Made by a program: the position numbers and the translations under genes. The notes under the pieces are model-generated. The model searched no databases, had not been told where the DNA came from, and worked only from the letters and a program-made list of their open reading frames with translations. A stretch of DNA of 43,578 nt from Promethearchaeota archaeon. Lineage in GTDB: Archaea; Asgardarchaeota; Lokiarchaeia; Sigyniarchaeales; SOKP01. Positions 29,054 through 29,458 of this stretch are shown piece after piece (within the stretch, counting starts at the first letter, position 1; each line of letters starts with the position of its first letter). Location of the stretch: contig JAEOSU010000100.1 of NCBI GenBank assembly GCA_016840165.1, positions 1 through 43,578 of the forward strand, given 5' to 3'.

Positions 29054-29212
29054 TTCAAATTTATTATATTTCAACTCAAATAATCGATTGACTAAATTAA
29101 ATTTTAATAAAATTTAATTAATAAGCTACACTACTTCTAAATACTTTAGACCGAATAAGGAAACATTTTATCGAAAATATTGCTCCTTATTGTTTGGTCT
29201 TGTGTGGAATTC

Positions 29213-29388
29213 TTAACCACATATTTATCTCAAAAAGCGCCGGAAGTTAAACTGTTTCGCGTTGCATCAAGTACTATAGTTGCGATCTATGGGAACATGC
29301 AAACTGTAGCTTTGGCTACGGTCATGGTGATGCAGGATATACCCGGTCCCATCCCGAACCCGGAATCGCTTTCTTTATATGTGGTTAA
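29213..29388 (+). other. Processing stem with a bulge-helix-bulge-like motif enclosing the permuted 5S rRNA
   Basis: TTAACCACATAT 29213-224 / ATATGTGGTTAA 29377-388; AAAGCG 29234-239 / CGCTTT 29367-372; central CCGG 29240-243 / CCGG 29360-363; bulges AAG 29244-246 and AAT 29364-366. Confidence 0.85.
29246..29365 (+). rRNA. rrf: 5S rRNA gene, circularly permuted (3' half 29246-29311, then 5' half 29314-29365)
   Basis: 5' half GGCTACGGTCAT...ACCCGGTCCCATCCCGAACCCGGAA and 3' half GTTAAACTG...AGTA...GGGAAC...CTGTAGC. All helices form: I 29315-321/29304-310; II 29327-335/29252-260; III 29343-346/29360-363 with loop C UCCCAUCCCGAAC; UUGCAU/AUGCAA; loop E AGUA/GAA; CUAUAG/CUAUGG. Total 120 nt. Confidence 0.93.
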
Positions 29389-29458
29389 CAATAATCCTAT
29401 ATAAAGTTAAACTCTTTTAAAAAAAAACGTTTTTAAGCGATATTTCTAATTAGATCTT

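What the first reader, a model, noticed from the sequence alone, without database searches (positions are those of the whole stretch)
29304..29321. Native 5S termini sealed by a C(UUUG)G tetraloop: mature 5S may remain a covalent circle
Seen: CTGTAGC-TTTG-GCTACGG. Helix I, normally open at the 5'/3' ends, is closed by a 4-nt UUCG-like loop with no spacer to remove. Inference: unlike permuted tRNAs, which are reopened by RNase P and RNase Z, the ligated 120-nt RNA needs no second cut. Ribosomes could then carry an end-less, exonuclease-resistant 5S, analogous to circular SRP RNA in Thermoproteus.
Basis: partly seen in the sequence, partly recalled or inferred. Interest (0 to 1): 0.85.

Follow-up and report, generated by a model that had tools for sequence, protein, structure and literature searches.

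The report
Tetraloop-capped, permuted, probably circular 5S rRNA
The small hairpin is the sealed end of a 5S ribosomal RNA gene written back-to-front in an Asgard archaeon, and its flanks carry splicing signals that should cut the RNA out and join it into a 120-base ring that has no obvious way of being reopened.

Summary
The hairpin CTGTAGC-TTTG-GCTACGG lies at 29304-29321 exactly as described. It is helix I of a circularly permuted 5S rRNA gene (29246-29365, + strand). This is the only 5S candidate in a 99.7%-complete Asgard (Promethearchaeia, Loki-class) genome.

Leader and trailer form a textbook bulge-helix-bulge (BHB) motif inside a longer processing stem. Cutting at the two bulges and joining the ends gives a 120-nt ring with the normal 5S junction. 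The genome encodes RtcB ligase and two splicing-endonuclease subunits.

The layout occurs in 113 of 126 genomes sampled from the family and in other Asgard classes. Helix I covaries. Its cap is 4 nt (U/C-N-N-G) in every family member found by searches that did not fix its length. In distant lineages it is 3-6 nt and never a spacer. Two different break points in relatives restore the same mature sequence.

The inference that the ring stays closed is the best-supported reading but is unproven, because no RNA data could be reached. My odds are about 0.97 for the gene architecture and about 0.55 that the ring is the mature ribosomal 5S.

This scan has noted permuted Asgard 5S genes before on other DNA (at least 78 genomes). 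No paper in the searchable library reports it.

The parts
29213..29224 (+). 5' arm of the outer processing stem (TTAACCACATAT)
   Evidence: Perfect 12-bp complement of 29377-29388. The flank duplex is -24.2 kcal/mol against -7.7 for shuffled flanks. In 88 of 94 relatives the flanks pair more than 3 kcal/mol better than shuffled flanks, with different sequences.
29234..29239 (+). BHB outer helix h1, 5' strand (AAAGCG)
   Evidence: Pairs with CGCTTT at 29367-29372. h1 covaries among relatives, for example ACG/CGT, TCGCACTAGA/TTTAGTGCGA and TTAAAATG/CATTTTAA.
29240..29243 (+). BHB central 4-bp helix, leader strand (CCGG)
   Evidence: Pairs with CCGG at 29360-29363.
29244..29246 (+). BHB 3-nt bulge 1 (AAG); predicted cut between 29245 and 29246
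   Evidence: The geometry is h1-H-bulge on the 5' strand. Placing the cut after the second bulge base follows the canonical archaeal BHB rule (established knowledge). The result is listed.
29246..29365 (+). Predicted excised and circularised 5S rRNA, 120 nt
   Evidence: Model R1 scores 106.2 bits at 29246-29346. Rfam 5S positions 27-51 match 29341-29365. Folded as a circle it gives the 5S three-way junction. It is the only 5S candidate in the genome.
29246..29310 (+). 3' part of 5S: helix II 3' strand, helices V and IV, loops E and D, helix I 3' strand
   Evidence: Consensus structure and covariation. Alignment of the reordered sequence with canonical 5S genes of the sister family.
29304..29321 (+). 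The finding: helix I (29304-29310 with 29315-29321) closed by the UUUG cap (29311-29314)
29315..29365 (+). 5' part of 5S: helix I 5' strand, loop A, helix II 5' strand, helix III and loop C
29360..29363 (+). BHB central helix, 3' strand (CCGG); this is also the 3' strand of 5S helix III
29364..29366 (+). BHB 3-nt bulge 2 (AAT); predicted cut between 29365 and 29366
29367..29372 (+). BHB outer helix h1, 3' strand (CGCTTT)
29377..29388 (+). 3' arm of the outer processing stem (ATATGTGGTTAA)

Best explanation
The hairpin is helix I of the organism's only 5S rRNA gene, which is circularly permuted. The 3' two-thirds of 5S (29246-29310) come first, then a 4-nt cap (UUUG), then the 5' third (29315-29365).

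Shown on sequence: the transcript extends into both flanks, which pair into a long processing stem. That stem ends in a canonical BHB motif: h1 AAAGCG/CGCUUU, a central CCGG/CCGG helix, and the bulges AAG and AAU.

Inferred from the known archaeal pathway: the splicing endonuclease (two EndA paralogues are encoded) cuts after the second base of each bulge. RtcB then joins the 2',3'-cyclic phosphate end at A29365 to the 5'-OH of G29246. This recreates the universal ...CCCGGAA-GUUAAAC... sequence.

Because the old termini are already joined by the cap, the product is a 120-nt covalent ring that folds as a normal 5S.

Inferred, not shown: this ring is not reopened and is the form built into the 50S subunit. 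The cap acts as a compact, stable tetraloop in place of free ends.
For: Architecture:
- There is no canonical 5S in the window or in the 99.7%-complete genome. The only hit covers Rfam model positions 27-51 at 29341-29365.
- The reordered sequence aligns end to end with canonical 5S genes of the sister family.
- The ring folds into the 5S three-way junction.
- On 41 relatives, 96.2% of cells are paired, against 34-47% when the partners are slid. The covariation score is 0.529 against at most 0.109.

Processing:
- 94 of 99 distinct loci have h1 (2-10 bp, covarying), a 4-bp helix and two 3-nt bulges. These sit at one of two break points (64 type A, 30 type B).
- Both break points restore the same contiguous mature sequence. 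Predicted rings are 119-123 nt, or about 30 nt longer per intron.
- The flanks pair at -20.2 kcal/mol against -9.1 for shuffled flanks.
- RtcB scores 556 bits, and two EndA genes of 208 and 206 aa are present.

The cap is retained rather than being a spacer:
- Searches that did not fix its length give 4 nt in 24/24 (blastn), 9/9 (Rfam sub-threshold) and 36/36 (model R1) family members.
- In 12 distant Asgard loci the cap is 3-6 nt.
- All 118 R1 matches in the class are 100-104 nt or 131-133 nt. In the long matches that were read, the extra 30 nt lies in helix IV/loop D and not in the cap.
- In the length-fixed pattern set, which did not fix the loop letters, position 1 is U or C and position 4 is G in all 102 loci.
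- The three distal pairs of helix I covary.

No reopening signal: there is no tRNA-like element, no Rfam family, and no DUF402/FAU-1 nuclease in the genome.

Precedents:
- Thermoproteus SRP RNA is permuted, BHB-processed and stays circular (PMC4731332).
- Circular 23S rRNA is reported inside archaeal ribosomes (PMC12918454).
- E. coli ribosomes work with the native 5S ends joined by a 4-nt connector (PMC7283268).
Against: There is no RNA-level evidence. A scan of metagenome contigs for the ligated junction found only unrelated canonical 5S genes.

Conservation of the cap could also reflect a need for correct folding of the precursor, or recognition by an unknown nuclease.

The window's own loop, UUUG, is not an extra-stable UNCG loop.

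The BHB helix h2 beyond bulge 1 is weak in the window: the G of the bulge could pair with C29359 and leave a 2-nt bulge.

Ligation efficiency and the fate of the ring are assumed from other archaea. DUF402 nuclease is present in some lineages that have permuted genes, so its absence here is weak evidence.
Confidence: 0.55

Rival explanations
1. The ring is only an intermediate. After BHB cutting and ligation, an unknown endonuclease nicks the cap or the end of helix I, giving a linear 5S with roughly standard termini, as happens with permuted tRNAs.
For: Permuted tRNA genes are matured through a circular intermediate that is reopened (described in PMC4267664 and PMC7758197). In the older view, circular pre-16S and pre-23S rRNAs are re-linearised (PMC12918454, background section). 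A conserved U-U-N-G loop could be a recognition site.
Against: The cap is 4 nt with nothing to excise. No tRNA-like fold for RNase P or RNase Z was found. Helix I has no bulges, so EndA cannot act there. The genome lacks the DUF402/FAU-1 nuclease family that PMC7758197 reports as involved in archaeal pre-5S processing. Strict conservation of length and of the Y...G ends is more simply explained by a loop that persists.
Confidence: 0.18
2. The RNA is cut at the BHB but not ligated. The mature 5S is then a linear, permuted molecule whose ends lie at the helix III/loop B boundary, comparable to the permuted mitochondrial 5S of brown algae.
For: Permuted linear 5S rRNAs exist in stramenopile mitochondria (PMC4267664). 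Engineered 5S opened in loop C or D can still function when tethered to 23S rRNA (PMC7283268). In relatives the break lies in loop C (type B), a place that tolerates opening in that engineered system.
Against: In the cases read here, BHB-excised archaeal RNAs are ligated: SRP RNA (PMC4731332) and 23S rRNA (PMC12918454, PMC7758197). RtcB is present. Both break points interrupt highly conserved continuous strands, and the predicted joins restore them to the base in 94 loci.
Confidence: 0.12
3. The locus is a decayed or rearranged 5S pseudogene, and the hairpin is a chance inverted repeat.
For: The hairpin alone is no rarer than chance. Rfam does not call a 5S here at its gathering threshold.
Against: It is the sole 5S candidate in a 99.7%-complete genome. 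The same layout is present as a single copy in 113 of 126 family genomes. All helices show strong compensatory covariation. The BHB flanks are conserved and covary.
Confidence: 0.01

Closest known systems
Permuted, circular SRP RNA of Thermoproteus tenax (Plagens et al. 2015, PMC4731332)
   Same: The gene halves are swapped in the DNA. Leader and trailer form a BHB cut by the tRNA splicing endonuclease. The new ends are ligated. The native ends are already joined, so the functional RNA is a covalent circle.
   Different: The RNA is different (5S rRNA, a ribosome component). For Thermoproteus the circle was shown by RNA-seq, northern blot and binding assays; here it is only predicted. Here the trait spans a whole family and several Asgard classes, with two alternative break points and extra introns.
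Circularly permuted tRNA genes (Cyanidioschyzon merolae; Thermofilum), as described in PMC4267664 and PMC5829648
   Same: The gene order is permuted, there is a BHB-like motif at the junction, and the RNA is circularised by the splicing machinery. They occur in organisms whose EndA has broad specificity.
   Different: In tRNAs, an intervening sequence between the native 3' and 5' ends is removed and the ring is reopened. Here there are only 4 nt and no tRNA-like handle.
Circular 23S rRNA within archaeal ribosomes (PMC12918454) and circularly permuted 23S of Pyrococcus furiosus (PMC7758197)
   Same: A ribosomal RNA is excised at a BHB and ligated. A circular or permuted form is reported in mature ribosomes.
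   Different: Those genes are collinear in the DNA, and the permutation or circle arises only at the RNA level. [quoted passage not shown]
Permuted mitochondrial 5S rRNA of brown algae (Valach et al. 2014, PMC4267664)
   Same: It is a 5S rRNA in which helix I is replaced by a closed hairpin.
   Different: It is organellar. The final RNA is linear with shifted ends. There is no BHB and no ligation.
Engineered E. coli cp5S rRNA with the native ends joined by a 4-nt connector (Huang et al. 2020, PMC7283268)
   Same: Helix I is sealed by four nucleotides, and the ribosomes are functional.
   Different: It is artificial and bacterial, and the cp5S is inserted into 23S rRNA rather than being a free ring.
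Low-abundance circular 5S species in Sulfolobus solfataricus and Pyrococcus abyssi (as summarised in bioRxiv 10.64898/2026.03.23.713588)
   Same: Circular forms of archaeal 5S have been detected.
   Different: They are minor species made from normally ordered genes without a BHB. They are regarded as intermediates or by-products, not as the obligatory product of the gene.

Membership tests
5S rRNA (Rfam RF00001) | Three-way junction of helix I, helices II-III and helices IV-V | tested here: met
   The circular fold of 29246-29365 gives this junction. The consensus structure is supported by 96.2% paired cells and 15 pairs with compensatory changes.
5S rRNA (Rfam RF00001) | Conserved loop C/helix III and loop E sequence motifs | tested here: met
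   Rfam model positions 27-51 match 29341-29365 at 23.7 bits, with posterior probability of about 1. AGUAC and GGGAA are invariant in 41 relatives.
5S rRNA (Rfam RF00001) | Full-length collinear match above the gathering score of 38 bits | tested here: not met
   There is no match at gathering threshold in the window or in the genome. The failure is explained by the swapped order of the halves and not by divergence.
5S rRNA (Rfam RF00001) | Free 5' and 3' ends at the tip of helix I | tested here: not met
   Helix I is closed by TTTG at 29311-29314.
BHB-processed permuted non-coding RNA genes (Thermoproteus SRP RNA type) | Leader and trailer form helix, 3-nt bulge, 4-bp helix, 3-nt bulge, helix | tested here: met
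   The window has AAAGCG / CCGG / AAG paired with CCGG / AAT / CGCTTT. The same geometry is found in 94 of 99 loci, with covarying h1.
BHB-processed permuted non-coding RNA genes (Thermoproteus SRP RNA type) | Cutting at the bulges and ligating restores the canonical RNA sequence | tested here: met
   The predicted join ...CCCGGAA|GTTAAAC... equals the contiguous sequence in type B relatives and in canonical 5S genes. The type B join equals the contiguous loop C of type A genes.
BHB-processed permuted non-coding RNA genes (Thermoproteus SRP RNA type) | Splicing endonuclease and RtcB ligase are encoded | tested here: met
   RtcB scores 556 bits. There are two tRNA_int_endo genes, at 102 and 72 bits.
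BHB-processed permuted non-coding RNA genes (Thermoproteus SRP RNA type) | Circular RNA is demonstrated (junction reads, RNase R resistance, gel mobility) | not testable with these tools
   No transcript data are available. The metagenome junction scan returned only unrelated canonical genes.
Permuted tRNA-type maturation (ring reopened) | A removable intervening sequence lies between the native 3' and 5' ends | tested here: not met
   The cap is 4 nt in all family members found by length-blind searches, and 3-6 nt in distant lineages.
Permuted tRNA-type maturation (ring reopened) | A tRNA-like structure that recruits RNase P or RNase Z | tested here: not met
   ARAGORN finds no tRNA in the window. 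Rfam finds no tRNA or RNase P substrate-like family at the locus.
UNCG/YNMG-type stable tetraloop | A four-base loop with a pyrimidine at position 1 and G at position 4 | tested here: met
   The loops seen are UUCG, UUAG, UUUG, UACG, UCCG, CUCG, CUUG, CUAG, UAUG and UGCG. G at position 4 is invariant.
UNCG/YNMG-type stable tetraloop | C (UNCG) or A/C (YNMG) at position 3 | tested here: not met
   The window has U at position 3 (UUUG). Most relatives meet the rule with UUCG, UACG or UUAG.

The most novel reading that the evidence does not exclude
In this family, and probably in much of the Asgard archaea, the 5S rRNA that sits in the ribosome is a covalently closed, end-less ring made by the tRNA-splicing machinery. 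This would be the first obligatorily circular 5S rRNA. The 5S genes of these lineages are also targets of true BHB introns and of break-point switching.
Probability: 0.55. Interest if true: 0.85.

Novelty: new variant of a known kind. Interest (0 to 1): 0.72.

Why it matters
5S rRNA is usually treated as a simple linear transcript with free ends. An obligatorily permuted gene whose product can only be made by cut-and-join would add 5S to the small set of RNAs that depend on the tRNA-splicing enzymes. That would make EndA and RtcB essential for ribosome production in these archaea.

It also explains why standard annotation finds no 5S gene in many Asgard genomes, which affects genome-quality scoring.

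An end-less rRNA in the ribosome of close relatives of eukaryotes would be a clean test case for the role of RNA circularity, for example in exonuclease resistance or fold stability.

The prediction is directly testable with RNase R treatment, outward-facing RT-PCR or existing metatranscriptomes.

Tried and rejected
- The Rfam scan at gathering threshold and ARAGORN on the window found nothing. This is informative only as an absence of canonical genes.
- A scan of JGI metagenome contigs for the ligated junction found 9 loci. All were ordinary collinear 5S genes of unrelated organisms, and none was derived from a transcript. This says nothing for or against ligation.
- The genome contigs pattern search fixed the distance across the cap. 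Those 102 loci were therefore not used for cap-length statistics, only for loop letters and BHB tests.
- My first BHB finder ranked candidates by the longest outer helix and picked spurious AT-rich pairings. I replaced it with a position-constrained test.
- I tested whether the pre-5S nuclease family DUF402/FAU-1 tracks canonical against permuted genes. It is absent from the own genome and genus. Across the phylum there is no clean pattern: it is absent from one family with canonical genes (f17) and present in some lineages with permuted genes (f13, f24, genus g20). I rejected it as a discriminator.
- The chance-hairpin reading was rejected on conservation.
- Two canonical 5S hits inside family genomes (G087 at 80.8 bits, G015 at 51.9 bits) lie on other contigs and look bacterial. 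Both genomes also carry the permuted gene. I treated the canonical hits as likely contamination and did not verify this.

Full report
**Observation**

The sequence at 29304-29321 is CTGTAGC-TTTG-GCTACGG, as reported. It forms seven pairs, one of them G-U, and A29303-T29322 could add an eighth. On its own such a hairpin is unremarkable. The window holds 56 hairpins of 7 bp with a 4-nt loop on both strands, against 49.5 in shuffled sequence. Its meaning comes entirely from context.

**What the locus is**

Rfam finds no RNA family at gathering threshold in the window, and ARAGORN finds no tRNA. A permissive scan finds one piece of 5S rRNA: model positions 27-51 (helix III and loop C) at 29341-29365. 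This is also the only 5S-like match in the whole 99.7%-complete genome.

Reading outwards, the 3' two-thirds of a 5S lie at 29246-29310 and the 5' third at 29315-29365, joined by the TTTG loop. Three checks support this:
- The reordered sequence aligns end to end with the ordinary 5S genes of the sister family.
- The 120-nt segment, folded as a circle, gives the classical three-way junction.
- On 41 relatives the consensus fold has 96.2% of cells paired, against 34-47% when the partners are slid. Its covariation score is 0.529 against at most 0.109. Helix I with its cap is 99.4% paired, and its three distal pairs show 9, 12 and 18 double changes.

**Processing signals**

The leader and trailer match the bulge-helix-bulge (BHB) substrate of the archaeal splicing endonuclease:
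- AAAGCG (29234-29239) pairs with CGCTTT (29367-29372).
- CCGG (29240-29243) pairs with CCGG (29360-29363).
- The 3-nt bulges are AAG (29244-29246) and AAT (29364-29366).

By the established rule, each bulge is cut after its second base. The excised piece is then 29246-29365, and joining its ends writes ...CCCGGAA-GUUAAAC..., the universal 5S sequence at that place.

Outside the BHB, a perfect 12-bp stem (29213-29224 with 29377-29388) extends the pairing. The flank duplex is -24.2 kcal/mol, against -7.7 for shuffled flanks.

The genome encodes RtcB (556 bits) and two EndA paralogues of about 207 aa. I infer that these form the two-subunit endonuclease type. According to PMC5829648, that type has broad specificity and accompanies disrupted and permuted tRNA genes.

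**Relatives**

Record titles place the lineage in the Promethearchaeota/Promethearchaeia, that is Asgard archaea of the Loki class.

I built a covariance model of the permuted core (R1). Its matches in the class sample, with canonical 5S results for comparison, were:

| Group | R1 (permuted core) | Canonical 5S (RF00001, above cut-off) |
|---|---|---|
| Own family (f1) | 113 of 126 genomes, nearly always one match each | 2 of 102, both likely contaminants |
| Sister family in the same order (f2) | 0 of 13 | 8 of 10 |
| Other families of the class (f3-f7) | capped, permuted genes seen in all five | none in the 8 genomes sampled from f4-f7; f3 not sampled |

Capped, permuted genes also occur in at least five families of other Asgard classes. 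At phylum scale, canonical 5S genes were seen in families f2, f12, f15, f17, f21, f30 and f31. None was seen in thirteen other families with two or more sampled genomes.

In 94 of 99 distinct loci a BHB of the same geometry is present, with an outer helix of 2-10 bp that differs in sequence between lineages. There are two classes:
- Type A, 64 loci: broken as in the window.
- Type B, 30 loci, including members of the same genus: broken eight bases into loop C.

Each predicted join reproduces what is contiguous in the other class. Predicted rings are 119-123 nt, or about 30 nt longer per inserted intron. Two independent openings that heal to the same molecule are strong evidence that the cut-and-join product is the functional sequence.

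**The cap itself**

The pattern search fixed the length of the cap, so I used only length-blind searches to measure it:

| Search | Loci with a 4-nt cap |
|---|---|
| blastn, own genus | 24 of 24 parsed automatically; two more read by eye |
| Rfam sub-threshold hits | 9 of 9 |
| Model R1 hits | 36 of 36 |

All 118 R1 matches in the class are 100-104 nt or 131-133 nt long. In the long matches that I read, the extra 30 nt lies in helix IV/loop D.

In 12 loci from distant Asgard lineages the cap is 4 nt in eight or nine, and 3, 5 or 6 nt in the others. No lineage has a spacer.

The loop letters are UUCG, then UUAG, UUUG and UACG in order of frequency, with a few others. Position 1 is always U or C and position 4 is always G. 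The window's UUUG is a one-base variant of the UUCG and UACG loops of its nearest relatives. This pattern is what purifying selection on a compact, persistent tetraloop would leave.

**Can the ring be reopened?**

Nothing I could test points to a second cut:
- Helix I has no bulges for EndA to act on.
- There is no tRNA-like element for RNase P or RNase Z.
- The nuclease family reported for archaeal pre-5S processing (FAU-1/DUF402; PMC7758197, PMC11602121) is not found in this genome or genus. Its distribution across the phylum does not track gene type, so this is weak evidence.

**Precedents**
- The Thermoproteus SRP RNA is permuted in the DNA, processed at a BHB, and remains a functional circle (PMC4731332).
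- A circular 23S rRNA has been reported inside archaeal ribosomes (PMC12918454).
- E. coli ribosomes tolerate 5S whose native ends are joined by four nucleotides (PMC7283268).
- Minor circular 5S species have been seen in Sulfolobus and Pyrococcus (summarised in bioRxiv 10.64898/2026.03.23.713588).

**What is not shown**

No RNA data were reachable. A scan of metagenome contigs for the ligated junction returned only unrelated collinear 5S genes. The steps of cutting, ligation, staying closed and incorporation are therefore inferred.

I put the gene architecture at about 0.97. I put the whole chain, in which the closed ring is the ribosomal 5S, at about 0.55. The rivals are reopening at the cap (0.18), cut but unligated linear permuted 5S (0.12), and pseudogene or chance (0.01).

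**Novelty**

Searches of the paper library for a permuted or circular archaeal 5S found only:
- the mitochondrial case (PMC4267664);
- the minor circular 5S species noted under Precedents.

The mechanism is that of a known kind, BHB-dependent permuted RNA genes, applied to a new and central RNA.

This scan has recorded the same kind of gene before on other DNA: 106 notes in at least 78 genomes, including Heimdall, Odin and Njord lineages. The companion note on this window (e1-5517715) describes the permutation itself.

Noticed in passing
L026:1501-1664 and L028 (relatives of the same genus); also L049, L052, L058, L064, L110 and others: A 30-nt insertion lies in the helix IV/loop D part of the permuted 5S. 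In L026 it is bounded by a complete BHB: GUA/UGC, then CUGC/GCAG, with the bulges AAA and AAU. Removing it by the BHB rule reproduces exactly the sequence of the intron-less relative L017. It therefore looks like a true splicing-type intron inside a 5S rRNA gene.
   Followed up: partly
L018-L021, L024, L027, L030, L031 and about 20 loci (for example L061, L069, L082): A second insertion of about 30 nt lies in loop C. It has a relaxed BHB: UCCG/CGGG as the central helix, the bulges AAA and AAC, and a weak outer helix. Predicted splicing restores ...CAUCCGAA-CCCAGAA.... One locus (L053) carries both insertions, giving a predicted precursor ring of 180 nt.
   Followed up: partly
L029 (G033, same genus), L044-L051 and 30 loci in all: A second break-point class (type B) opens the gene inside loop C (GGUC|CCAUCC) rather than after helix III. 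Both classes occur within one genus, so the opening has moved during evolution while the mature sequence stayed the same.
   Followed up: yes
Leaders of many relatives, for example L006, L044 and L059: A small conserved hairpin (GUAGC-AAUUC-GCUAC and covarying variants) sits in the leader between the outer processing stem and the BHB. The window's own leader lacks it. Its function is unknown.
   Followed up: no
Phylum-level genome sample: Several Asgard families have neither a canonical 5S match nor a match to the permuted-core model, for example family f10 with 0 of 13 for both. Their 5S genes may be arranged in yet another way, or be too divergent for the strict search filters.
   Followed up: no
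G087:C68:17163-17272 (L032) and G015:C263:6954-7076 (L041): Two family genomes carry a high-scoring collinear 5S on a separate contig in addition to their permuted gene. The sequences look bacterial, and the genomes are rated 5-7% contaminated, so this is probably binning contamination.
   Followed up: no
window 29180-29404 (+): A 74-aa open reading frame starting with TTG overlaps the whole 5S gene. Given the RNA gene it is almost certainly spurious, and gene callers could mis-annotate it.
   Followed up: no
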